DNA of 41,531 nucleotides from UHGV virus genome UHGV-0397187. One strand, written 5' to 3'. The stretch comes from a virus. The translations under genes were made by a program, and so were the position numbers. Position 1 is the stretch's first letter. The number at the start of each line of letters is the position of its first letter. Of the stretch, positions 1 to 41,531 are shown one piece after another. Under the pieces are notes generated by a model. The model saw only the letters and a list, made by a program, of their open reading frames with translations, did no database searches and was not told the origin of the DNA.

Positions 1-55
1 GGTATCTGATTATCTCCTGTGCCCACATCCCTTTTCGCCGCTTCTCCCAAACCAA
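1..55 (-). CDS. tail-fibre variable C-terminal segment, 5' fragment (no own start codon; continues left of the window)
   Basis: Minus-strand translation of 1-55 reads [20 protein letters not shown], identical to the residues that follow the crossover site in the tail fibre at 39614-40309; DNA is the reverse complement of about 39951-40005. Confidence 0.5.
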   Translation of the reverse strand, partial: MVWEKRRKGMWAQEIIRY

Positions 56-67
56 CGTTTATGAAAA
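42..67. other. hix/gix-like 26-bp invertase crossover site (copy at window start)
   Basis: ttctcccaaacc-aa-cgtttatgaaaa: left half-site identical to the sites at 39939-39964 and 41482-41507; matches the recalled Hin hixL pattern TTCTTGAAAACCAAGGTTTTTGATAA in the conserved half. Confidence 0.6.
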
Positions 68-121
68 TGCAGAAATAACGAGCAAATGGCGTCATTCCTG
101 CTTTTGTCAGGGTGATCTACC

Positions 122-414
122 ATGTTTATAGGCTATGTACGCGCATCAACAAATGACCAGGACACCGATTTACAACGCAATGCGTTGATCTGTGCAGGAT
201 ATGAGCTGATTTTTTGAGGGTAAATCATCAGCATGAGACTAATAATTTAGCGTCCAATTCTGGGCTTTTTGGTTGCACCCTCTCCGCCCAGAATTGCGCG
301 CCAATTGGCCCAGAAAAAAACGCGAAGTTACAAGTTCCTCGCCAGAAGGTGGCGATCATCTATGATGTTGGCATATCGACTTTGTATAAGAAGTTTCCGG
401 TCGGAGATAAATGA
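122..414 (+). pseudogene. pin: serine DNA invertase (Pin/Hin/Gin family) remnant with internal deletion
   Basis: 122-217 encodes MFIGYVRASTNDQDTDLQRNALICAGYELIF then a stop (invertase N-terminus with the catalytic-Ser motif); the 214-414 frame ends ...RQKVAIIYDVGISTLYKKFPV, resembling the invertase C-terminal HTH; the central catalytic domain is missing. Confidence 0.7.
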
Positions 415-574
415 AACCGTAGCACGTCGTATGCAAGAACGTGCCACGGCTGGCTGATGGACGTTCGATAGCGCGAGTTTGAATGAAAATCAGCCGGAGG
501 TGATTTTACATAATTGTTGCGGAATCATTCAATATAGGGATTGCTTATTTCTGCCTGGATTGGTCTGAAATAGT

Positions 575-829
575 CCCGAAATTTTCTCTAAAAAACTCGA
601 AAAAAATGGTAACTAATTGAATGCATTAATATGCAATGGTACGTGTTTGGGATTAAAAGATGAGCGTAATTTTGCTTAACAAATTAATTTAAAAAGGGTT
701 TCTTGTTTGTTGACGAAAACAGGAATCGTATTCGGTCTTTTTTTAATTGTATTTAAAATCAATCAGTTGTAAACGTCTCCCCGAAATTCCCCGAAATTTA
801 CTCGAATTTCTGTATTCCGGTCTTTTTTG
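575..829. promoter_or_regulatory. AT-rich repeat-rich region downstream of int 3' end; candidate attL with integrase arm-type sites
   Basis: Tandem ccccgaaatt x2 at 779-798, cccgaaatt at 575-583, tattcggtcttttttt at 729-745 repeated as tattccggtctttttt at 813-829; sits where lambda-type prophages carry attL. Confidence 0.3.
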
Positions 830-875
830 GTTATATCACAACCAAAATACATTTAACAATCCATTTACGTTAAAA

Positions 876-1952
876 TCAGAGCAGTAAGTACGTTTTTTCT
901 CTCTCATCAAGGTACATTTTTGTTGTCTTCTCCGATGTGTGGCCAAGTAGACGCTGAGCAAATTCTTCTCCACATGTTTCTTTGTACAATCGTCCAGCCA
1001 GACTTCTGATCTCGTGAAAAGTTGGTGGGTTTTCACTGAACTGGATACCTGTTAATTTTCTGGCTGCGACAAATTTTTTTGTCAGGCCATCCGGGTGAAT
1101 GCTGCCGTCAGGGCTGTTTTTTCTAATCCCGGCACTGATTAGATAATCTCCCCGGCTTACCAGGCGGCATCGTTCAACTACTGTACCAAGTCGTAAACCA
1201 GCGACAGGAAGGCTGAGTGACAGGGGGATAGCAATCATCATTCCTGTCTTAATTTGCCTGATGTGGAGACGATCATCATAAATCTCACTGAACCGCATAT
1301 TTGTTATGTCTTCGCGACGTTGTCCTGTTACAAGGGCTAAGTCCATAGCTAATGGGAACCATGTCGGAAGTTGATCTGCTGCCTCCCTGATGCAGTTGTA
1401 TGTCTTTAGTTTCAGCCGTTCTCTTGTAACTACTATTTTCGGTGCTCTTGTTGGCGTTACTGGATTTTGAGATATACGTCCTTCAACAATGGCCTCGCGG
1501 AACATATCAGATAACACAGAACGCATTGATCCTGCCATCGTGTTTTTCCCTCCTTCAATCCACAAATCAAGAAACTCGGCAATATGGCGAGTGGTTATTT
1601 CTGTCAGTAAAACTCCTCCTAATTTTTCTTTTATTGTCTCCAGTTGATTTACCCGAATTTTATAAGTATTTCTGGACACTTTTCTCCTTATAAGAATCGT
1701 TTTGTAACGTTCAATCCAGTCTGCCATAGTAAATGAGTCGAACCCTTTTAGTTTTTCAATTAAGGTAGCAGGAGAGTAGTTTTTGTATATATAATGATTT
1801 GCTTCAATTGCCTGCGCTACTGCATCTCTTCTTGAAATTTTACCTAGTGTAAATTCTTCTTTCGTCAGAGGGTTGCGCCAGTAATATGCTTTGTCCCTCC
1901 TTCGATATGTTAAGTTTTTAGGCAAATTGGGATCGTATTTTTTCCGCTGCAT
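876..1952 (-). CDS. int: lambda-family tyrosine integrase
   Basis: 358-aa ORF; N-terminus [28 protein letters not shown]...EFTLGK parallels lambda Int MGRRRSHERRDLPPNLYIRNNGYYCYRDPRTGKEFGLG; C-terminal [15 protein letters not shown]...LLGH motif also conserved. Confidence 0.9.
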
Positions 1953-2205
1953 GTTTTAACTTCTCCAGTAACGGACTGTCTCTCCCTTGTCGCCCATTAG
2001 GCTGATGGTGTGTTATATCGGTATCAACCTTATTTGGGTTGATATAGAAAGCTTCCGGAACCACCCTGTAACTCCTCCCGTGTAGTTCAGGTGCAGGATA
2101 AATGTTTCCATTCCTTGCCCATCGTCTCAGCGTTGATATTGATGGTGGGTTATCCGGATATCTGAGTTTTCCCCACGTTTTGAGTGTCACAAGATTCATT
2201 GCCAT
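1918..2205 (-). CDS. xis: excisionase (Xis-like), overlapping int start
   Basis: 95-aa ORF immediately upstream of and overlapping int, as in lambda xis-int; small basic protein; position-based call. Confidence 0.5.
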   Translation of the reverse strand: MAMNLVTLKTWGKLRYPDNPPSISTLRRWARNGNIYPAPELHGRSYRVVPEAFYINPNKVDTDITHHQPNGRQGRDSPLLEKLKHAAEKIRSQFA

Positions 2206-2305
2206 ACCTCTTACGATATGACCGCCAGTAAATATACAGAATACTGGCGGGTGTGGTTGATTTTTAATAATCAGCTATGAAGTTCTAATTTGTATATAAT
2301 GCAAC

Positions 2306-2494
2306 TCACGAGGACAGAAGTTTCTCGCAATTAAAATTTATCAGCTTTACTTTCTGCTCTCTGGACACGCCTGCTTCTTTTTTCCCTGAGAGCATTTTTT
2401 CGCATTCTGATTTCGTTAATTTAGATTTTGAATATCTTGTCCAGTTAGTAGGAGTGCCACCTTCTTTTTCAATAGTGGCAGTTATTTTATACAT
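2306..2494 (-). CDS. hypothetical small protein (position of Rac ydaC); start uncertain
   Basis: ORF 2306-2566 on minus strand; a later Met is chosen to limit overlap with the downstream lar-like gene. Confidence 0.35.
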   Translation of the reverse strand: MYKITATIEKEGGTPTNWTRYSKSKLTKSECEKMLSGKKEAGVSREQKVKLINFNCEKLLSS

Positions 2495-2693
2495 GAACAC
2501 CTCCATTATTATTTCCAGTAGTTCGTTTATTCCATCTTTCGAGTGCTTCTTTTTCACTTCCACCATAGCCAGTTCGGGATTCGCATCCGTTGCATTTTGC
2601 CCGGTAATATCCTGAAATTGCTTTCACCGTAACAGATGGACAACCACAAAACGGACATGGTTTAACATCGTCATATCTCATAATTTTTGTCAT
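2487..2693 (-). CDS. lar: Lar/RalR-family restriction-alleviation protein
   Basis: MTKIMRYDDVKPCPFCGCPSVTVKA...KCNGCESRTGY: small protein with paired Cys motifs typical of the Lar family; sits directly upstream of recT as in Rac. Confidence 0.7.
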   Translation of the reverse strand: MTKIMRYDDVKPCPFCGCPSVTVKAISGYYRAKCNGCESRTGYGGSEKEALERWNKRTTGNNNGGVHV

Positions 2694-2737
2694 AAAAACT
2701 GTCTCACGTTGGCGGTGCATTACACCGCCAGGCTGAA

Positions 2738-3547
2738 TTATTCTTCTGAATTATCGATTACACTGTATTCCCCGGTTAATACAGAGGAGTCTGCCGGATC
2801 GATTGTCAGTGGTTCCTTTTCATCCATTGATACTGCACGCTGGATTTCAATTGAGACAGGCAGGTATTTAAACAGGCGACGAATAGCCGTTTTTTTTGCC
2901 ATTTCTTCCCAGTGAGTTACCCATGGCCCGTTATTACCAGCCTTACTCTGGCTGCGCACCAGTTCAATCTGTTTGCGCGTCATAACTTCAAACTGAGTCC
3001 CTCCGTCTTTCAGTCTTGCGACAGCATAGACGTGGGTCACTGGTGCATCTTCGTTTTCTCCCGGGCGGTGTATTAACTTTTCATCAAGGCCAAATTCAAA
3101 ACTAAACTCGTCACCTTCACGGACAACACGGGCTGACAGGCTGGCGATTTGACCAGAACGGCGAGCCAGATCAATCATGCCGCGATAACCAATGATTAGC
3201 TGAACGTTCTTTTTACCGCTCTTTTCGTTTTTATTACCAAAAGGCAGTAAATATGCGTGGCCGAGGGCGCTACCTGGCTCAAGGCCGAGCTGTGAACACT
3301 GAACGATCGCACTGACAAAACTCATGGTGTCACAGTTTCCTAGCGCCGGAACCTTACGAATTTCTGTGGTGGCGATACGTATCATTCGTTCAGCCGTCAT
3401 ATGGCGTGGGAGAGCTGCTGCCAGTTGCTCTTTCATTGATGGCTGATTAATAAAGCTGATCACGTCGTTATTTTTTACTGCTGCTGGTGCACGGTTTCCC
3501 TGGGTTTTTTGCAGATCGGCTTTTGCGATAGGTGGTTGCTTAGTCAT
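2738..3547 (-). CDS. recT: RecT single-strand annealing recombinase
   Basis: From [32 protein letters not shown]... the translation matches my recollection of E. coli Rac RecT essentially throughout. Confidence 0.95.
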
Positions 3548-6173
3548 TTGCATACTCCTTAGCCCAGCGGGGCAGTGATAACGTTTTAATAGCTGGCCAT
3601 TCATCGGTATTCAGGCAGTCAGCCAGGGTCCTCAGATTGCGGTGATATTCCTGCTGGCCTGCCAGTTTTGCTTCTTCGCCCATCATGAAAATCTCAACCG
3701 GGTAACGTCCGCATTCAACAGTTGTGCTGGCAACCAGAAAAACGAAAGTTGGCAGCACGCCAAACTGTGCTTCATAACCGTCACTGTAGAATGCATCCTG
3801 AACGTGATAGCGGTAGTCGTAATAAGCCGTTTTGAATCGTTGAATATCCGCTGTGGTTTTCACGTCCATGATCCAGTGAAATTCAGGAATAATTTTGTCC
3901 GGACGGCACCGACACAAAATTCCTGTTTCCGGATCTTCCCAGTAAATTGATGATTCAGCGTGTCCGGCGCTTTCAACAAGCCATTGCCCCAGCGGCAAAG
4001 CCATAACGCTTTGATACATGAGTTCAATTTTCCGGCCTTCTTCCGCAGTGATAACCGTTTTTCCTGTGCTTGCGCATTCCATCAGAAACGCTTTCTCTTC
4101 TTCTTTTCCGGCGTTTGTACGGCGGTTAAATTCAGGTGCTACGATAAAGCGGTTACTGAATTCTTCCGGTTCAAGTACCCGGCAGTGGAAAGCGGTTCCT
4201 AAATCGAGCGTTTTTGTCTTTGTAGTGTCCACGGGGGCATTTTTACGCCACAAATACAGTGCCGGAGTATCAGCAATGTCATCGAGCTGAGACTTACTGA
4301 CACCGGGACCCGCGTGGTAATTCTCATTCGAAATTCCGTAATAAATACCTGGCTCTATGTCTTCTACGATTACGGGATCTGCGACTTCGCCAGTTTCATC
4401 ACTGCAATCGCGATGCGGATCGCTGCCAGCATTCTCATTGTGCGGATGTTCAGCGCCTTCCATTTCCTCCGGATCTTTTTCCTTAGCTTCAACCTGATTC
4501 TCTTCACCGAATGTTTCCTGGTATGTTGCGTCGCCCATCACCGCACCACAGTCAGGGCAGTTATCCCCGCCAGTCTGACCGCAGGCATTGCAGACTATTT
4601 CCGGTTCCTGTTGCACTACTGGCTCAGGTTGTTTCGCATCCGGGCTGATTTTTTCCGTTTCTGGCTGGTTCTGGTACACAGAATCGCGAGTCTGGATCCC
4701 CTTAACCCATTTCGGATCGTTCGGGTCGCTAATCCCTTCAACAAATTCTCCGCGAGAGGCAGCCAGTAATTTGTCTGCATCGACAGGATTTTTGGGCGGA
4801 ATGTTTTTCCGGGCTTCATGGAGTTCTGCCCGCAGTTTCTGATATTTCGCATCAACAGAATTTACCTGTGACTGAGCATCCAGCGACTGCGTGTCCTGAT
4901 GATGTTCAGTTGCATCCGGTTCCACTGTTTCAGCCGTTGCCTGTTCATCTGCCATTGCGCAAGATGGTTGCAGTTTTTCTTCATCATCCTGTTTTTCTTC
5001 TTCTGTTACACGCTGCGGCATCGGGGCAGAGGAACGACCGCAGGCAATATCCACGATTTCTGGATCAGGGTTGGCATGATCAGTTTCAGTCAGTACTTTG
5101 TTCAGATATTCAGTGACGTGTGCGGGGATAACCTCGATCCCAATTGGTGCTTCTTTTACGGACGCAACCACGATGGCGCGGGAATAATCCAGCCCACCAG
5201 GCATGGTGATGAATTTGTCGCGGAAAACAGAAAAGGGTGGTTTATTTTCAGCGATAATTTCCTCGACACGTTTAGCGTGTGCCGGATGAAGGTTATAAAT
5301 GTCCACGTCCATTGAACGAGCCAGTACGCCAGTGGCTACGTCGCGCGCCAGTGACGTCAGATCGTGAACGAAACCTTCGCCGCGATCGGTGAGGTTCCCG
5401 CCGCCAGCATTAGCGCCGGAAGCCGTGCGCGTGATGCGTGAAACACGATTTCCTTTCATCCACTCTTTTGTCAGCAGACCGCGATCGGTGTAGTCTGCGT
5501 CCAGGTATGCTTCGAAAAAAGCAGTCATCAGCCCCAGGCTTGAATTGCCTGGATTAGGGAAAACTCTGTCAGTATCACGCACCAGTTTGTGGAGATCGCG
5601 AATTTCCAGCGGGTCGAGCAGGCTGGTTTTGTGGGAAACAGCCAGGGCAGTAACAGCTGGTAGTTCTTCAGCTCGTGCAATGTGTAATGCCTGTAGTTCG
5701 TCGCGTGAAACGTGCGTTACCGGTTTTTCGCTGCCGTGTTGAGCAAGCCAGCGAATGGGCAGCTCCTGACCGGAAATCGGGAGTAGCATATTCTCCTCAA
5801 TCTCCGTCATGTCTTCGCCATTAACATTGGTATTGTCAGTGCTGGCTGGTTTGTCCTGCGCAGAGGATGAGGGCGCGATAAATACCATTGTGATGCCATC
5901 TTCCCCGCCTTTTTCGTAACGGTTGCAGAATTCCGTATCAAATACGCCTTCTGGTGGAAGGTCATCAACAACGGGCAAATTGACGCGAACAGGTTTTTTA
6001 AAGTCATCTTCATCGTAGCCAGCATCGTCAATCGCAACAGCACCACGGGAGATGGCAATGGATAATTTTTTCGCTTCAGCCCAGTAGAAACCGCCTTTAA
6101 TACCGAGACGTTTTCTTACTTTGTCATTTTTTGCTTCGTAATACAGTGGGTAAACTTGTTTATCGGTGCTCAT
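3540..6173 (-). CDS. recE: RecE exonuclease VIII
   Basis: 877-aa ORF; long stretches ([45 protein letters not shown]..., C-terminal ...[14 protein letters not shown]) match Rac RecE as recalled; N-terminal ~100 aa differ. Confidence 0.95.
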
Positions 6174-6243
6174 TGTTTTTTAACCTCAACTCAGATTAAA
6201 ATTAATGCGAGTGATGAATAAATGTCCCTGGTTCTTCACTCAG

Positions 6244-6273
6244 GCCTGCACAGTGTGCAGGCTTTCTTTTTTC
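6244..6273 (+). terminator. plus-strand hairpin plus T-run (intrinsic-terminator-like) in the racC-recE intergenic region
   Basis: gcctgcaca-g-tgtgcaggc followed by tttcttttttc; all surrounding genes are on the minus strand. Confidence 0.3.
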
Positions 6274-6300
6274 AGATTTCACCTTTTAATTTCATTGCAA

Positions 6301-6546
6301 TCAGAGTTGCCAGAAATTCGGCTTTTTTTCTGCGGGCAGATTCTTTCCTATGTGCACCAGACACATTTTTTTAACACCATCGTTAAGTGTTTTAACGTTG
6401 CCTGATGGACCGTCGATATCAACCACAGTGAATGGGGTTTCTTTATTTTCTGTCTTAATCACGTAGCCAATACGCTTTCCTTCCAGGGTAACTTCGTGAA
6501 CAATGTCATCAGTAGTAACAACAGTGGCTTCATAACTGGTAATCAT
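6301..6546 (-). CDS. racC: RacC-like protein
   Basis: MITSYEATVVTTDDIVHEV...; strong RBS (aaggagaaaaac) before this Met; position after recE as in Rac. Confidence 0.7.
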   Translation of the reverse strand: MITSYEATVVTTDDIVHEVTLEGKRIGYVIKTENKETPFTVVDIDGPSGNVKTLNDGVKKMCLVHIGKNLPAEKKPNFWQL

Positions 6547-6620
6547 GTTTTTCTCCTTAATTAAGGTTGAGCGAATCCCTGCCATTGCTGGCATAAATTC
6601 AGTTTCGGATAGTCAGTTAA

Positions 6621-6790
6621 TTAAAGTTCGTGTGCCATCTGGTCTTTTTCGGCACAGATTTCACTACAATATTTTTTCATTTCCGTCGTTGGTATAACTC
6701 CACGCATGAAATGAAGTGGTCTTGTAATGATTTTGCTTTCTTCAATTTCTTTATTGCAAAGGTGATAAGCACATTTTATTTTCTTAGTCA
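6621..6790 (-). CDS. ydaE: YdaE-like small zinc-binding protein (missed by the ORF track, under 60 aa)
   Basis: Minus-strand translation [56 protein letters not shown]; four Cys; resembles Rac YdaE. Confidence 0.7.
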
Positions 6791-7012
6791 TTACCATGAC
6801 TCCGCCTTTACAGGTAAACCATCACGACCGAGGAAGACTCTAATCATGCAGTCAGAAATGCATGTTTTTGTAGTCAGGCTACGAATATAAAGTTTTCGCT
6901 TTTTAATATTGTTTGCCGAGGCGATATATGTCCGACCTTCATGAAGAACATAATCGCCAGGGGTCACACACTGACGTGGTATTTCATCAGTTCCGAAGTG
7001 ATGAGCAATCAT
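6791..7012 (-). CDS. kilR: Kil protein (KilR-like cell-division inhibitor)
   Basis: [46 protein letters not shown]...; matches Rac KilR as recalled; GGAG RBS precedes this internal Met. Confidence 0.8.
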
Positions 7013-7407
7013 AATTATCTCCATTTTTACAAATGAACTTTGTTGATGCGGTGCCTGGTGCCTCCAGGTGACGTTAACCAGTTAACAATTAACGCCGGAT
7101 AATCCACCCATAACACTGATGCTTTTAACTGTGCCGCGTGCGCTTAGCCGCATTCACCGCATCACAAAATTCACTTTAAAAAGGGGCAGCAGGGCAGCCA
7201 CGGAGTAGAACTGATGCCGCCAAAGACTACACATAGCAATGTCGTTATTTACAACCGGAGGCGCACTCCCACCATTTAAATTTAACAGACAAGACCGACT
7301 CTTTATGAATACCGGAAATGCGCCTTCGTGTTGTGCGCCTGTCTTTTTACCACTTCAGGCTCGGTGGTATACTGGAGTTCTCACACAACCAGTAATAAGG
7401 TATTCCG

Positions 7408-7602
7408 ATGGATAATAAAGACAAAGCCTGGCTACTTGCTTTAGCTTTCAGCATCAGATCGCAGCGAGAAACAACTCATCAAGAATTTTTCTCGGAAATC
7501 GAGAATGCTGAGAATGAGTTTTTGTCACTACTCAATGAACGTGATGCTAAAAAAAGCGCCGATTCACTTAAGGCTTGGGCGAAACTAGGCTCTTCAAAAT
7601 AA
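7408..7602 (+). CDS. hypothetical protein (position of sieB in Rac, but much shorter)
   Basis: 64-aa ORF preceded by an extended -10 (tggtatact) at about 7360-7370. Confidence 0.4.
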   Translation: MDNKDKAWLLALAFSIRSQRETTHQEFFSEIENAENEFLSLLNERDAKKSADSLKAWAKLGSSK

Positions 7603-7786
7603 TTGCTTCTGTAGCGGCATGAACAACTGTTTTTGCCGCCTCTTCAACTTCCTTGTCTGGACGACCAGCCTTTACTTTTTCTGCAATGACCTCCAGCACA
7701 GTTGGAAGAACCTTGCTAATAAGCATGGCTGCCACATCTTTGCTGCACAATTGACCGTTAATAACAACCAGATCTTCACCAACCAT
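7568..7786 (-). CDS. hypothetical protein, convergent with the previous gene
   Basis: ORF 7568-7843; the internal Met at 7786 is preceded by an aagggga RBS. Confidence 0.4.
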   Translation of the reverse strand: MVGEDLVVINGQLCSKDVAAMLISKVLPTVLEVIAEKVKAGRPDKEVEEAAKTVVHAATEAIILKSLVSPKP

Positions 7787-7963
7787 CTTTTTTCCCCTTA
7801 ACGCCGGGTGGCGGAACGTTTTATCTACTGCGCTTTGTATCAATCAACAACTGCCGTCATGTTCGTATGCCTCAGGCTGGCTACTTAGCCCTGTTCAGTG
7901 GCTGGATAACTCGAGGTATTGTCCTGCCGTTCTCTGGTGGGGCGTTGTTTGGATATGCTTATT

Positions 7964-14608: not shown

Positions 14609-14946
14609 ATTACCGAGTAAGGCGATGGACTACCTGAAGCGAAACGGGCTGACAAGCGTGGAGGATATTTTACGATGACCTGGCCTGAGGCATTCACCAC
14701 GGTAGGAATTGCAATGGCGGTGGCGCTGGTGGTGTATTCGATTTGCCGCTGGGGATAAAAACGGTTTGCGGGAAAAGGAGAGTTAAGTAGAATTGCAGCG
14801 GGTGCTTGAGGCTATCTGCCTCGGGCATGAACACCAACGGCAGATAGATAAAAGCCCCACCCGACTATAAATCGAAGTGAGGCCCCTATATGCTCGTCAC
14901 ATATAGATTGCCTCTTACGGACCGAAAGGTCAAGGAGAAGCAGGCT

Positions 14947-15102
14947 ATGAAGCAGCAAAAGGCGATGTTAGTCGCCCTGATCGTCATCTGTTTAACCGTC
15001 ATAGTGACGGCACTGGTAACGAGGAAAGACCTCTGCGAGGTACGAATCCGAACCGGCCAGACGGAGGTCGCTGTCTTCACAGCTTACGAACCTGAGGAGT
15101 AA
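14947..15102 (+). CDS. hok: Hok/Gef-family type I toxin
   Basis: MKQQKAMLVALIVICLTVIVTALVTRKDLCEVRIRTGQTEVAVFTAYEPEE: hallmark Hok sequence; aaggag RBS; in-frame upstream extension from 14890. Confidence 0.9.
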   Translation: MKQQKAMLVALIVICLTVIVTALVTRKDLCEVRIRTGQTEVAVFTAYEPEE

Positions 15103-17102: not shown

Positions 17103-17128
17103 CTCAATCTGTTATCCGGGGCTATATT
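17099..17128 (+). promoter_or_regulatory. late promoter PR'-like (sigma70)
   Basis: -35 ttgact (17099-17104), 18-bp spacer, -10 tatatt (17123-17128). Confidence 0.6.
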
Positions 17129-17189
17129 CCTCACGCGCCAGCAAAATCTGGCGTCGGGATTGGCGTCCCGGATAGAGACCGCGACAGAT

Positions 17190-17213
17190 ACACGCCGCGA
17201 GCGTGTTTTTTAT
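17190..17213 (+). terminator. tR'-like intrinsic terminator about 65 nt downstream of PR'
   Basis: acacgc-cgcga-gcgtgt followed by tttttatt. Confidence 0.6.
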
Positions 17214-17372
17214 TGTCGTATGCACGCGCACATCTGAATTATGGTGGGCTGTGTGGGGGCGGAGAGATCCGCGCCGGTCGGTTTCCCGGTTACGCCAACC
17301 CTGCACAGTTCACCACCAGATGATTGGCGTCGTCGGTGGTGAGTTATTAAGAAACCACCAGAGGGCGTCATT

Positions 17373-38937: not shown

Positions 38938-39614
38938 GCAAATACACCGAACTGATCACGAACTACCACGCCACCAAACCTAAATTTCTTGCACATGTTG
39001 ATCTGATGACCCGGCCGCTTATTGATGTTGCGGCTGCCACCAGAGGGCTGATTACTGCATTTGATATTGACTCTGCGGTTGGTGTGCAACTTGACATTCT
39101 TGGATTGTGGATCGGACGTAGCCGTGTTGTCAGCCAGCCTATCTCAGGTGTCTATTTCAGCTGGGATACCGACGGGCTTGGATATGATCAGGGTGTATGG
39201 CAGGGGCCATACGATCCTGATTCCGGATACATGTACCTCAGCGATGAAACTTATCGTGTCATCCTTAAAGCGAAGATTGCGATTAATAACTGGGATGGAC
39301 GGAATGATTCGCTTCCGGCAATTCTTGACGCGGCGACAGCAGGATCCGGACTGCGAATGCAGATAGTCGATAACCAGGACATGACGATATCGGTCTGGGT
39401 CTTTCCTGATACTGATATTTCAGATGTATCGCGTGAGTTAATTGCTGCAATTAAACAGGGATATCTCACAGTAAAAGCCGCCGGGGTTTGGGCGGGTGGC
39501 ATTGAAACACCTTCGGTGGAAACTCCATCGGAAGGTTCAAAATTTTTTGGTTTTGATATGGATAACGAATTCATCAGTGGTTTTGATGTAGGGGCATGGG
39601 GAGTATTACTCTGA
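38934..39614 (+). CDS. baseplate/tail protein (gpI-like)
   Basis: 226-aa ORF immediately upstream of the tail fibre gene. Confidence 0.55.
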
Positions 39615-40309
39615 TGGCGAAAAATGACTTTAAAGCGTTTGCAACTGATCGGAATGCCAATGTTATGTCGCAGGAGGAATGGGAAGCGTTGCCTGCGCTT
39701 TTATCCGGATTTACAGCAGGGAAAGCATCCAGTGCGCAAGTCAATAAGGTTATTCGGCAGGCCAGCTTTATTGCTGCAGCTCTGGCCCAGTTTGTAAGTG
39801 ACAAAACGCAACGGGATGTGCTTGATAATGGTGATCTGCCCGGTTTTGTTGAATTGCTGGGATCGGGGTTTGCTGTTGAATACCTGAGCCGCAAGAATCC
39901 GTTTGGCGATATCAAATCGGATGGCACGGTGAAAACGGCTCTCGAAAACCTTGGTTTGGGAGAAGCGGCGAAAAGGGATGTGGGCACAGGAGATAATCAG
40001 ATACCGGATATGGGAGCATTCGCTTCTGGTTCGGGATGGTTCAGGCTACCAGGTGGATATATTGTTCAGTTTGGCACTTTTTCAGGAAACACGACCCGCT
40101 TTATCAGTGGACACTTCCCTATACCATTCCCTAATCAGCCGATGGTTTCAGTCAGTGTTATGTCTGATGCCGTTCAGTCAGACCCGTCGAATCCTGCCCC
40201 GCAGGTTTTGTCTGTAAATTTTGAACATATCAGTAATTCAGCGTGGCGTGTGGCAACCAGTGATATCTCACAGCAATACAGATTCAGTTATATTTCGATA
40301 GGACGGTAG
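39614..40309 (+). CDS. tail fibre protein with invertible C-terminal half
   Basis: ATG at 39614 overlaps the previous stop; the hix-like site lies inside the coding region at 39939-39964, splitting a constant N-terminus from a variable C-terminus. Confidence 0.8.
39939..39964. other. hix/gix-like 26-bp crossover site (left, inside tail fibre gene)
   Basis: ctctcgaaaacc-tt-ggtttgggagaa, exact reverse complement of 41482-41507. Confidence 0.8.
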
Positions 40310-40311
40310 AA

Positions 40312-40752
40312 ATGCAGAAATATATTTTCAGTGCCGATAAAAATGCGTTTTTCCCTGTGGAGCTTAAAATCGCTTATCAGGAATCCGGCGAATGGCCCGA
40401 TGATGGAATCGAAATTGACGACACTGTTGCCGCCGAATTTATGAAGGAAGCACCAGAAGGAAAATACAGAGGTGTCATCGACGGAATGCCTGCATGGATT
40501 GATATTCCACCGCCAACTCATGAGGAACAAATTGCCGCAGCCGAACTGGAAAAGCAGCAATTGATTAATCAGGTCAACGAATACATAAACAGTAAGCAAT
40601 GGCCTGGTAAAGCGGCGATTGGTCGCCTGAAAGGTGAGGAACTGGCGCAATATAATTTGTGGCTGGATTATCTGGACGCACTGGAGCTGGTCGATACTTC
40701 CGGTGCGCCAGATATTGAATGGCCTACGCCTCCGGTAACTCAGGCCAGCTAA
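40312..40752 (+). CDS. tfa: tail fibre assembly protein (Tfa)
   Basis: 146-aa ORF right after the fibre; C-terminal VDTSGAPDIEWP motif shared with Tfa'. Confidence 0.8.
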   Translation: MQKYIFSADKNAFFPVELKIAYQESGEWPDDGIEIDDTVAAEFMKEAPEGKYRGVIDGMPAWIDIPPPTHEEQIAAAELEKQQLINQVNEYINSKQWPGKAAIGRLKGEELAQYNLWLDYLDALELVDTSGAPDIEWPTPPVTQAS

Positions 40753-41119
40753 TCTCAGGAGCCGTCGAAGTGTCGACGGCTTTTACTTCTTTTTTGTAGT
40801 ACATCCAGGCGGATAGTTTTTCTTTATCTGTACTGCTAATATCACCAAGCATTAATTCCACTCGCCAGTCAGCTGTGACATTATCGGCATGAGAAAGTAA
40901 CTGCATTCGCTGATTTTCCGCACGTGCGACATAATCAATCACCGGGGATTTCAGTACCGGTAAACCATTTTCATCTGACGTAATTAATTTACCCCCTTCC
41001 TGCTGTCCGGCAATTAATTCATTGTATAAGTCTGTACTTATCTCAACAATGTCAGCAGGCATGTCGCTGTTTATACCATCGAAGAAAAAACCATTAGTCG
41101 ATTTTGAGAAATAAATCAT
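40724..41119 (-). CDS. alternative tail fibre assembly protein (Tfa')
   Basis: MIYFSKSTNGFFFDG...; C-terminus ...VDTSTAPEISWP parallels Tfa; convergent with Tfa and overlapping its 3' end. Confidence 0.75.
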   Translation of the reverse strand: MIYFSKSTNGFFFDGINSDMPADIVEISTDLYNELIAGQQEGGKLITSDENGLPVLKSPVIDYVARAENQRMQLLSHADNVTADWRVELMLGDISSTDKEKLSAWMYYKKEVKAVDTSTAPEISWPELPEA

Positions 41120-41127
41120 AGATATAC

Positions 41128-41531
41128 CTATACACCGATTGCTACCCAAAAACAGGACCTTTCATATTTGACAATTTCTCCCTGAGATATACCGCCAACA
41201 ATTATATAGAACTGTGATTTGCTGATATCAGAACAGTTCGCTATGCCCATTGCAGATATACCCGCCACCGACGTTGTATGTGGTACAGCCAACAGCGCAA
41301 GTGAACGATTTGGGAATGTTACCGGGTAAGTCACCGTATAGTTTGATGCTCCACTGACAATACCCCACTGAATAATCAGACCCGAAGGTAGTTTTTGAAA
41401 ACCCGTTGATGAAAGTGAACTGGCAAACGCCGCCATATCCGGAATTTGGTTTTGCCCGTTACCTACATTCCGTTTTGCCGCTTCTCCCAAACCAAGGTTT
41501 TCGAGAGCCGTTTTCACCGTGCCATCCGATT
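41128..41531 (-). CDS. alternative tail fibre C-terminal segment (no own start; expressed only after inversion)
   Basis: Minus-strand translation ...[41 protein letters not shown]... shares the constant-region junction with the fibre at 39614-40309, then diverges. Confidence 0.75.
41482..41507. other. hix/gix-like 26-bp crossover site (right)
   Basis: ttctcccaaacc-aa-ggttttcgagag; near-palindromic half-sites around a 2-bp core. Confidence 0.8.

What the first reader, a model, noticed from the sequence alone, without database searches (positions are those of the whole stretch)
39939..41507. Hin/Gin-type invertible tail-fibre host-range switch
Perfect inverted 26-bp sites at 39939-39964 and 41482-41507 have a half-site, 2-bp core, half-site architecture resembling hixL. 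The left site lies inside the fibre ORF at the constant/variable junction (...[11 protein letters not shown]|). The segment carries Tfa in the expressed orientation and Tfa' plus an alternative C-terminus (start-less ORF 41128-41531) in the silent orientation. The cognate invertase is expected just beyond the window end.
Basis: partly seen in the sequence, partly recalled or inferred. Interest (0 to 1): 0.6.

Follow-up and report, generated by a model that had tools for sequence, protein, structure and literature searches.

The report
Pin-type invertible phage tail-fibre switch
This is an ordinary, well-known kind of flip-switch that lets an E. coli phage swap the tip of its tail fibre; the "perfect" repeat and the missing enzyme are explained by how the contig was assembled, and the phage's own flipping enzyme gene is broken.

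Summary
The inverted repeat is real, and the locus is an e14/Mu-type (Pin/Gin) invertible tail-fibre segment. Three details of the finding are wrong.

1. The window is a whole k=55 assembly contig of an excised circular phage, opened inside the switch. Its first 55 nt are the reverse complement of 39951-40005. Its last 55 nt are the reverse complement of 39915-39969.

2. The "right site" (41482-41507) is the left site read backwards with the alternative fibre end attached, i.e. the flipped-state junction. The native partner site is at 42-67. Both native sites are identical to the e14 P-segment sites.

3. The invertase gene is at the window start (122-414), not beyond the end, and it is dead. 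It keeps 31 codons, then the 118-nt right end of a Mu-like transposable phage, then the last 26 codons.

The contig ends, and an independent k=31 assembly that breaks exactly at the crossover core, show both orientations in the sample. Near-identical genomes are clean flip isomers. The crossover sites and both Fis-enhancer cores survive, so flipping is probably done in trans by another prophage's Pin, as published for e14. This is a known kind of system and of low-to-moderate interest.

The parts
39596..40309 (+). Tail-fibre gene in the state shown (237 aa): constant part Sc (39596-39950) fused to variable part SvA (39953-40309)
   Evidence: ORF. Pfam Gp53-like_C at aa 150-237. It follows the baseplate genes Baseplate_J and DUF2612/wedge. 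Annotated as a gp53-like tail protein in relatives.
39939..39964 (+). Left crossover site (pixL-like): CTCTCGAAAACC TT GGTTTGGGAGAA, core TT at 39951-39952, encoding LENLGLGE
   Evidence: Identical to the site inside e14 stfP. Present in L001, L002 and L010-L018. Flip-isomer breakpoints fall inside it.
40312..40752 (+). TfaA, tail-fibre assembly chaperone for SvA
   Evidence: Pfam Caudo_TAP, E=1.4e-34.
40757..40784 (+). Terminator-like hairpin (12-pair stem plus T-run) just after the TfaA stop, inside the 3' end of the inverted tfaB
   Evidence: This is a pattern match only.
40724..41119 (-). TfaB, chaperone of the alternative cassette, convergent with tfaA and overlapping it by 29 nt
   Evidence: Pfam Caudo_TAP, E=1.8e-23. 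Its exact protein occurs on contigs L003 and L004.
41128..41493 (-). SvB, the alternative fibre C-terminus. After inversion it fuses in frame to Sc and gives a 240-aa fibre.
   Evidence: Pfam Gp53-like_C, E=2.2e-15. In-silico flip gives an intact ORF.
41482..41507 (-). Hybrid junction: inner half and core of the segment joined to the LEFT site's outer half. This is the flipped-state Sc-L-SvB junction read backwards, not a native right site.
   Evidence: Outer half GGTTTTCGAGAG is L-type. All finished loci have CGTTTA[T/A]GAAAA on the pin side. It is followed by rc of Sc 39915-39938.
41477..41531 (.). Terminal 55-mer of the contig, exactly rc(39915-39969): a de Bruijn branch vertex where Sc-L continues into SvA or SvB
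1..55 (.). Initial 55-mer of the contig, exactly rc(39951-40005): SvA joined to the pin-side site (flipped-state right junction)
42..67 (+). Native right (pin-proximal) crossover site: TTCTCCCAAACC AA CGTTTATGAAAA, core AA at 54-55
   Evidence: Identical to the site upstream of e14 pinE and of L001/L002 pin.
1..95 (-). Pin-side short ORF start (ATG at 95-93) reading MTPFARYFCIFINV-GLGE across the right site into the pin-proximal cassette
   Evidence: Conserved in e14, L001, L002, L005, L011, L012 and L018. Annotated as a CDS in finished genomes. The e14 equivalent (StfE/StfE2) is reported as expressed in PMC12529663.
122..217 (+). 5' remnant of the invertase gene (31 codons then a stop). Homology to pin ends at 214.
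   Evidence: Alignment with pinE. tblastn aa 1-31. Pfam Resolvase positions 2-27 of 145 only, below the cut-off.
144..206 (.). Putative Fis-dependent recombinational enhancer: cores CATCAACAAATGACC (144-158) and GTGCAGGATATGAGC (192-206), 48 bp centre to centre, proximal core about 96 bp from the right-site centre
   Evidence: Homology to the gin/pinE 5' region. The distal core fits G..YR..W..YR..C. Geometry matches the ~100 bp reported for hin in PMC3798978. Inferred, not tested.
215..332 (+). Right terminus of a Mu-like transposable prophage (...GAAAAAAACGCGAAGTTACA) embedded in the pin gene
   Evidence: The same sequence ends prophages inserted in hyfB (L143), in eutC (L144) and at other loci. 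All diverge right after TTACA.
334..414 (+). 3' remnant of the invertase gene (last 26 codons, part of the HTH, and the stop)
   Evidence: tblastn aa 159-184. Pfam HTH_7 positions 23-43 of 45, below the cut-off. Alignment.
714..745 (.). attP core: the overlap of the matches to the two prophage-host junctions. It shows the window is the excised circular form.
   Evidence: The L020 int-side match starts at 714 and the L001 pin-side match ends at 745.
876..1952 (-). Tyrosine integrase (context; not the inversion enzyme)
   Evidence: Pfam Phage_integrase, Phage_int_M and Arm-DNA-bind_1.

Best explanation
The locus is an e14/Mu-type invertible tail-fibre segment in a temperate E. coli myovirus that has a Rac-like early region. 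The segment is about 1.54 kb and lies between the cores at 39951-39952 and 54-55. It is bounded by two 26-bp sites for a Pin/Gin-family serine invertase.

The left site lies inside the fibre gene. One orientation therefore expresses Sc-SvA with its chaperone TfaA. The other expresses Sc-SvB (240 aa) with TfaB, changing receptor specificity.

The window is a complete k=55 de Bruijn contig of the excised circular phage. The assembler could not close it because reads of both orientations were present. The contig therefore starts with the SvA/pin-side junction and ends with the SvB/Sc junction. That ending creates the apparent perfect repeat.

The phage's own invertase gene (122-414) is inactivated. 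Only 31 N-terminal and 26 C-terminal codons remain, separated by the right end of a Mu-like transposable phage. The two crossover sites and the enhancer-bearing 5' end are intact.

What is shown: the sites, the cassettes, the pseudogene, the coexistence of both junction types, and flip isomers in relatives. What is inferred: present-day inversion is catalysed in trans by a Pin-type invertase of another prophage in the host, with Fis bound at the retained enhancer.
For: Sites: L (39939-39964) and R (42-67) are identical to the e14 P-segment sites.

Cassettes: Gp53-like_C twice and Caudo_TAP twice. The flipped fibre is an intact 240-aa ORF.

Contig ends: both are exact 55-mers that occur reverse-complemented inside the window, and 56-mers fail.

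Independent k=31 assembly of run ERR8081429:
- Contig L003 equals window 39951-41495, core to core.
- Contig L021 equals window 37-4952 at 100% identity. It runs unbranched through pin remnant, Mu-like end, attP and int, but stops exactly where SvA and SvB diverge.
- A third assembly (L004) also ends at the core, 41495.
- A single orientation shares only 19 bp between the two junctions, too short to break either graph (sequence).

Flip isomers:
- L011 vs L012: flanks 99.9-100% identical, interior inverted at 99.84%, breakpoints inside the sites.
- L001 vs L002.
- L005 vs L007, in the invertase-less Mu-like lineage with the same insertion flank, at 99.95-99.97%.

Pseudogene. No other invertase is present in the window.

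Enhancer cores retained: and PMC3798978.

Trans precedent: PinQ, PinR and PinE all invert the e14 P segment at TTGGTTTGGGAGAAGG (PMC12529663).
Against: - No reads were available, so coexistence of both orientations rests on assembly-graph signatures.
- The sample could contain two strains or prophage copies fixed in opposite orientations rather than a switching population.
- No trans-acting invertase was identified, because the host genome is not in the window.
- The enhancer assignment is by homology and consensus only. The proximal core deviates from the Fis consensus at one end.
- Searching finished E. coli genomes for a flipped version of the invertase-less Mu-like locus L143 found none, but only 3 genomes carry that cassette pair.
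- The source contig itself was not found in the three collections.
Confidence: 0.8

Rival explanations
1. One reading: a simple segment bounded by the two perfect 26-bp sites at 39939 and 41482, with an intact cognate invertase just downstream of 41531.
For: The repeat is perfect. Relatives such as L001, L010 and L018 do have an intact pinE right after their segment.
Against: - Beyond 41507 the sequence is reverse-complemented fibre constant region, not pin leader.
- The outer half is L-type, unlike every finished locus.
- The window ends exactly 55 nt into the shared k-mer.
- The native site and the pin locus sit at 42-414, linked through attP to the integrase.
- That pin is a pseudogene.
Confidence: 0.03
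2. A frozen relic. The segment no longer inverts in this phage because its invertase is dead. The alternative junctions in the assemblies come from a mixture of strains or co-resident related prophages fixed in different orientations.
For: - The pin pseudogene.
- The cassettes and sites are shared at 95-99% identity with many prophages and with Peduoviridae phages, so cross-talk in a mixed sample is possible.
- No flipped copy of L143 was found among finished genomes.
Against: - The k=31 contig L021 passes unbranched through the unique path pin remnant/Mu-like end/attP/int, yet branches exactly at the SvA/SvB divergence.
- L003 is flanked at both cores by both alternatives.
- L005, an isolate-genome contig of the invertase-less Mu-like lineage, carries two pin-side junctions and is the flip isomer of L007 at about 99.96% identity.
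- Trans inversion at these exact sites is experimentally documented.
Confidence: 0.14
3. A true inverted duplication or a multi-site, shufflon-like system (Min/p15B style) with three or more functional sites in one molecule.
For: Three copies of the 14-bp core plus inner half occur in the window.
Against: - Two of the three copies lie inside terminal 55-mers that duplicate internal sequence exactly.
- Finished relatives have exactly two sites.
- Once the terminal overlaps are removed, the circular genome holds only two sites.
Confidence: 0.03

Closest known systems
e14 P segment / PinE of E. coli K-12 (stfP-tfaP / tfaE-stfE-pinE)
   Same: - Both 26-bp crossover sites are identical.
- The junction is at the same peptide (...ALENLGLGE) in a short (about 210-240 aa) fibre.
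- The tfa genes are convergent and overlapping.
- The pin leader and the in-frame MMPFA... start on the pin side are the same.
- The 5' pin/enhancer region is homologous.
   Different: e14 is a defective prophage with an intact pinE. Here the phage is complete and excised (attP present), the variable cassettes are different, and pin is destroyed.
Phage Mu G segment / Gin
   Same: The architecture is Sc-[site]-Sv-U / U'-Sv'-[site]-invertase. The enhancer region in the 5' end of the invertase gene is homologous.
   Different: The Mu gix sequences differ (TTATCCAAAACCTCGGTTTACAGGAA). The Mu segment is 3 kb, the S fibre is 504 aa, and gin is intact, followed by com/mom.
Trans inversion of the e14 P segment by PinQ/PinR (Kirigo et al. 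2025, PMC12529663)
   Same: The crossover sequence is the same (TTGGTTTGGGAGAAG). An invertase encoded by one prophage flips a fibre segment in another. The pin-side chimeric short fibre protein is proposed to be expressed.
   Different: In K-12 the cis invertase PinE is intact and the trans enzymes are additional. Here a trans enzyme would be obligatory. No anti-phage role was tested here.
Salmonella Hin/hix flagellar switch
   Same: The 26-bp site has a 12-2-12 layout and matches hixL at 19-20 of 26. The two Fis cores are 48 bp apart and about 100 bp from the proximal site.
   Different: Hin flips a promoter for fljBA, not fibre-gene cassettes. The hixL sequence used for comparison was recalled from memory.
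Invertible fibre segments of Peduoviridae (P2-like) phages 500465-2 and Cartapus
   Same: They carry the same SvA-TfaA cassette (98.9% identity) and the same TfaB-SvB cassette (96.5% identity), next to their own DNA invertase. Homology with the window starts inside the 26-bp site.
   Different: The constant fibre part and baseplate are unrelated, and the invertase is intact.

Membership tests
Gin/Pin/Cin/Hin-type invertible segment (e14 P-segment subtype) | Two 26-bp crossover sites in inverted orientation, each with 12-bp half-sites around a 2-bp core | tested here: met
   The sites are 39939-39964 and 42-67, with reverse-complementary cores (TT/AA). Both are identical to the e14 sites.
Gin/Pin/Cin/Hin-type invertible segment (e14 P-segment subtype) | One site lies inside the tail-fibre gene, so inversion swaps the C-terminus | tested here: met
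   The site encodes LENLGLGE within ORF 39596-40309. The in-silico flip gives an intact 240-aa fibre.
Gin/Pin/Cin/Hin-type invertible segment (e14 P-segment subtype) | Two alternative fibre C-termini, each with its own assembly chaperone, in opposite orientation | tested here: met
   Pfam Gp53-like_C twice and Caudo_TAP twice.
Gin/Pin/Cin/Hin-type invertible segment (e14 P-segment subtype) | Adjacent functional serine invertase gene (Resolvase catalytic domain plus HTH_7) | tested here: not met
   Only aa 1-31 and 159-184 remain. Both Pfam matches are below the cut-off and cover 26 of 145 and 21 of 45 profile positions. There is no other invertase in the window. Relatives have the intact 184-aa gene.
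Gin/Pin/Cin/Hin-type invertible segment (e14 P-segment subtype) | Fis-dependent enhancer in cis, within the 5' end of the invertase gene, about 100 bp from the proximal site | tested here: inconclusive
   The homologous region is retained. Two 15-bp Fis-like cores lie at 144-158 and 192-206, 48 bp apart and about 96 bp from the site centre. Fis binding and enhancer activity cannot be tested here.
Gin/Pin/Cin/Hin-type invertible segment (e14 P-segment subtype) | The segment is found in both orientations, with exchange at the core | tested here: met
   Contig-end k-mers. k=31 contigs break at the core. Flip isomers are L011/L012, L001/L002 and L005/L007. Read-level confirmation was not possible.
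Multiple-inversion systems (Min of p15B, shufflons) | More than two crossover sites in one molecule, giving several cassettes | tested here: not met
   The third site copy is a terminal-k-mer duplicate. Finished relatives have two sites.

The most novel reading that the evidence does not exclude
An 'orphan' switch. A viable, excising phage, and a whole lineage of Mu-like prophages whose right end lies immediately after the first 31 invertase codons, have lost the invertase. They keep the two crossover sites and the enhancer-bearing 5' stub. They would rely on Pin invertases of co-resident prophages to switch host range. The stub would then be maintained as a cis-acting enhancer, not as a decaying gene.
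Probability: 0.4. Interest if true: 0.5.

Novelty: new member of a known kind. Interest (0 to 1): 0.3.

Why it matters
As a switch it adds nothing new. Pin/Gin-type fibre inversion has been known since the 1980s, and this prophage family is annotated in thousands of E. coli genomes.

Two points have some value. First, it is a clear worked example of how an invertible segment shapes a short-read contig. The terminal k-mers mimic a perfect inverted repeat and hide the true partner site and enzyme at the other end of the contig. Anyone scanning contigs for inverted repeats should expect this. Second, the invertase-less state with intact sites and enhancer occurs here and in a Mu-like lineage. Together with evidence that the segment still flips, this fits the recent finding that Pin enzymes act across prophages. 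It suggests that phage host-range switching can depend on the resident prophage community.

Tried and rejected
- Exact-protein look-up of the 237-aa fibre found nothing on record. Assemblies probably break inside this gene.
- The source contig was sought with an exact 51-mer across the Mu-like-end/pin-3' junction. It was absent from viral, genome and metagenome collections.
- The window's cassette combination and its pin allele are absent, at 80% coverage or more, from 5,426 complete E. coli genomes.
- I tested whether the invertase-less Mu-like locus of strain 2824 (L143) exists flipped in finished genomes. None was found, but only 3 genomes carry it in the native orientation, so the test is uninformative.
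- I surveyed pin truncation points at loci with the same right site. Of 105 assessable loci, 26 have a disrupted pin. All 3' truncations but one keep at least 107 nt, against 93 nt in the window's allele. With about 10 distinct endpoints this is only weakly non-random (roughly p = 0.08 under a uniform model), and L069 has no pin homology at all. I do not rely on it.
- I considered N15-like telomeres or terminal inverted repeats. I rejected this because each end matches an internal sequence, not the other end.
- I considered a direct terminal repeat from circularisation. None is present.
- The promoter scan found nothing convincing for pin or for the pin-side short ORF.
Full report
**1. The observation**

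Positions 39939-39964 (CTCTCGAAAACC TT GGTTTGGGAGAA) and 41482-41507 are perfect reverse complements. No match was seen in 100 shuffles. The site has a 12-2-12 layout, its half-sites match at 9 of 12 positions, and it matches hixL (recalled from memory) at 19-20 of 26. It lies in the 237-aa fibre ORF 39596-40309 and encodes LENLGLGE.

The perfect match is really 55 bp (39915-39969 = rc 41477-41531) and stops exactly at the window end. Inside the segment the arms continue at lower identity, because SvA and SvB share their first ~20 codons.

**2. A third site, and what the window is**

The core plus inner half (TTGGTTTGGGAGAA) occurs three times: at 39951, at 41482 (minus strand) and at 42 (minus strand). 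The copy at 42-67 reads TTCTCCCAAACC AA CGTTTATGAAAA. It is identical to the invertase-proximal site in E. coli LWY24 (L001) and in phage vB_EcoM-606R2 (L002).

The window's first 55 nt are exactly rc(39951-40005), and a 56-nt match fails. The same holds for the last 55 nt against 39915-39969. Each end stops exactly 55 nt from a point where two alternative sequences diverge:
- At the start, the divergence is between the L-type and R-type outer halves.
- At the end, the divergence is between SvA and SvB.

This is the signature of a k=55 de Bruijn contig ending at branch vertices.

The window also joins the integrase (876-1952, minus strand) to the pin locus through an attP core at about 714-745. 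In chromosomes these two ends are separated and flanked by host genes: pphA on the pin side and yebY/copD on the int side. The window is therefore the excised circular phage genome, opened inside the switch.

**3. What the "right site" is**

Every finished or long locus examined (L001, L002, L010-L012, L014, L016, L018) has an L-type outer half (GGTTTTCGAGAG) only on the fibre side. The pin side always has CGTTTA[T/A]GAAAA.

The window's 41482-41507 has the L-type outer half, followed by 24 nt of reverse-complemented constant fibre sequence. It is therefore the Sc-L-SvB junction of the flipped state, read backwards. The window start is likewise the SvA-R-pin junction of the flipped state, while 39915-40005 is the Sc-L-SvA junction of the unflipped state.

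In a single orientation the two junctions share only 19 bp (TTGGTTTGGGAGAAGCGGC). Neither a k=55 nor a k=31 graph would branch on that. The branches therefore require reads of both orientations.

**4. Independent assemblies**

Logan run ERR8081429 gives two relevant contigs:
- L003 equals window 39951-41495 at 100% identity, that is, from core to core.
- L021 equals window 37-4952 at 100% identity. It ends at position 37, so its last 31-mer starts where SvA and SvB diverge.

Logan uses k=31 (my knowledge), and the break points fit that value. L021 runs unbranched through the pin remnant, the Mu-like end, attP and int. That sample therefore holds one copy of this unique path, joined to both cassettes. 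An ENA metagenome scaffold (L004) also ends at the core, 41495.

**5. Comparative proof of inversion at these sites**

- L011 and L012, two NCBI E. coli genomes, have flanks 99.9-100% identical. Their interior (6013-7889) is inverted at 99.84% identity, and the breakpoints lie inside the 26-bp sites.
- L001 and L002 show the same pattern.
- In L002 the window's own SvA-TfaA cassette sits inverted next to the invertase at 98.5% identity, and the homology breaks at 39946-39965.

**6. Parts**

Pfam results:

| Part | Pfam match |
|---|---|
| SvA and SvB | Gp53-like_C |
| TfaA and TfaB | Caudo_TAP |
| Upstream genes | Baseplate_J and DUF2612 (wedge) |

Flipping in silico gives an intact 240-aa Sc-SvB fibre. 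A 12-pair terminator-like hairpin follows tfaA.

The pin-proximal copy is not start-less. A conserved ATG in the pin leader (window 95-93, minus strand) reads MTPFARYFCIFINV-GLGE into the cassette. The same holds in e14 and in six other loci. PGAP annotates such ORFs as genes.

**7. The invertase**

The pin locus is at 122-414. Compared with the intact 555-nt pinE of L001 (Resolvase plus HTH_7), the window keeps nt 1-93 followed by a stop, and the last ~78 nt. About 390 nt of catalytic core are missing. No other invertase is encoded in the window.

The intervening 118 nt (215-332) are not random. The block from the R site through pin nt 1-93 to ...GAAAAAAACGCGAAGTTACA is conserved in prophages with Mu-like baseplate and fibre genes. 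These prophages are inserted in hyfB (strain 2824), in eutC (EPEC E2348/69), near mhpT and elsewhere. All of them diverge immediately after TTACA. That block is the right terminus of a Mu-like transposable phage.

The window's pin is therefore a relic. The likely route is transposition of such a phage into pin, followed by recombination between the homologous fibre segments. That route is inferred. About 20 of 5,426 complete E. coli genomes carry this terminus. That lineage natively lacks an invertase next to its segment.

**8. Can it still flip?**

The 5' stub retains the region homologous to the gin/pinE/hin enhancer. Two Fis-like 15-bp cores lie at 144-158 and 192-206. They are 48 bp apart, and the proximal core is about 96 bp from the site centre. 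This matches the ~100 bp geometry described for hin, with ATTTA/TAATG-type tracts between the Fis sites (PMC3798978).

Kirigo et al. 2025 (PMC12529663) show that PinQ, PinR and PinE all invert the e14 P segment at TTGGTTTGGGAGAAGG. The window's sites are identical to the e14 sites.

In the invertase-less Mu-like lineage, L005 and L007 have the same insertion flank and are 99.95-99.97% identical, yet they are flip isomers. The L005 contig itself carries two pin-side junctions.

Trans inversion is therefore the best reading, but it remains an inference. Two further tests added little. Searching finished genomes for the flipped L143 locus was uninformative because only 3 genomes carry it. The truncation-point survey gives only weak support.

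**9. Comparison with known systems**

The closest system is the e14 P segment with PinE (identical sites, same junction peptide, same leader). Next is the Mu G segment with Gin (same architecture, different site sequence and size).

The cassettes themselves are shared at 96-99% identity with Peduoviridae phages that have their own invertase, and the homology starts inside the site. This is the classic mosaicism of fibre cassettes.

The one defining feature not met is a functional cis invertase. So the locus works like a P/G segment, but in this genome it is an invertase-less variant.

**10. Verdict**

This is a real feature of a known kind. Its site pairing, its "start-less" claim and its prediction of where the invertase lies are wrong, for reasons that come from contig topology. 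Interest is low to moderate (0.3). The most novel reading still open is obligate dependence on resident prophage invertases, with the 5' stub kept as an enhancer.

Noticed in passing
window 215-332 (with 42-214): The sequence that interrupts pin is the right terminus of a Mu-like transposable prophage family. That family is found inserted in hyfB, in eutC, near mhpT and at other sites in E. coli genomes. These prophages natively end right after the first 31 invertase codons, so they have an invertible fibre segment with no adjacent invertase.
   Followed up: yes
window 714-745, with int at 876-1952 (-) and a Pfam Exc-family excisionase (called on relative L020) corresponding to about window 1918-2199 (-): An attP core joins the two prophage ends, so the contig is the excised circular form. 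The chromosomal integration site in relatives lies between pphA and yebY/copD.
   Followed up: partly
window 2310-2488 (+), overlapping ORFs 2306-2566 and 2487-2720 (-): Rfam RalA sRNA (219 bits), the antitoxin of the RalR/RalA type I toxin-antitoxin system of Rac. A Lar-like restriction-alleviation ORF and RecE (3540-6173) and RecT (2738-3604) lie next to it. The early region is Rac-like.
   Followed up: no
window 14800-14949 (+): Rfam sok antitoxin RNA (104 bits), which implies a hok/sok-type toxin-antitoxin module inside the phage.
   Followed up: no
window 17122-17320 (+) and 7184-7235 (-): Rfam isrK, C4 antisense RNA and its a1/b1 targets, which together resemble a P1/P7-type antirepressor control module. 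A DicF sRNA copy lies at 7184-7235.
   Followed up: no
window 35893-36524 (+): Two small ORFs lie between the tail and baseplate genes. One is a signal-peptide protein with TNTGTTY repeats (84 aa) and the other is a 113-aa protein. The equivalent position holds different genes in each relative (L010-L019), so it looks like a moron hot-spot.
   Followed up: no
L013, L015, L017, L019 (relatives with a 100% identical DUF2612 baseplate protein): The fibre module of this prophage family is highly plastic. Some members have an 807-aa Peptidase_S74 fibre and no switch. Some have a fibre plus an acyltransferase. One (L015) has a 179-aa fibre followed directly by pin, as if the segment had been deleted.
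   Followed up: partly
IMG/VR loci L026, L048, L089, L126, L063, L123, L046, L051: Many public viral contigs end 25 or 54 nt past this same crossover site, or 3-4 nt before it. Some (L005, L048) carry the pin-side site at both ends of the segment. Invertible segments systematically break short-read assemblies and create spurious perfect inverted repeats.
   Followed up: partly
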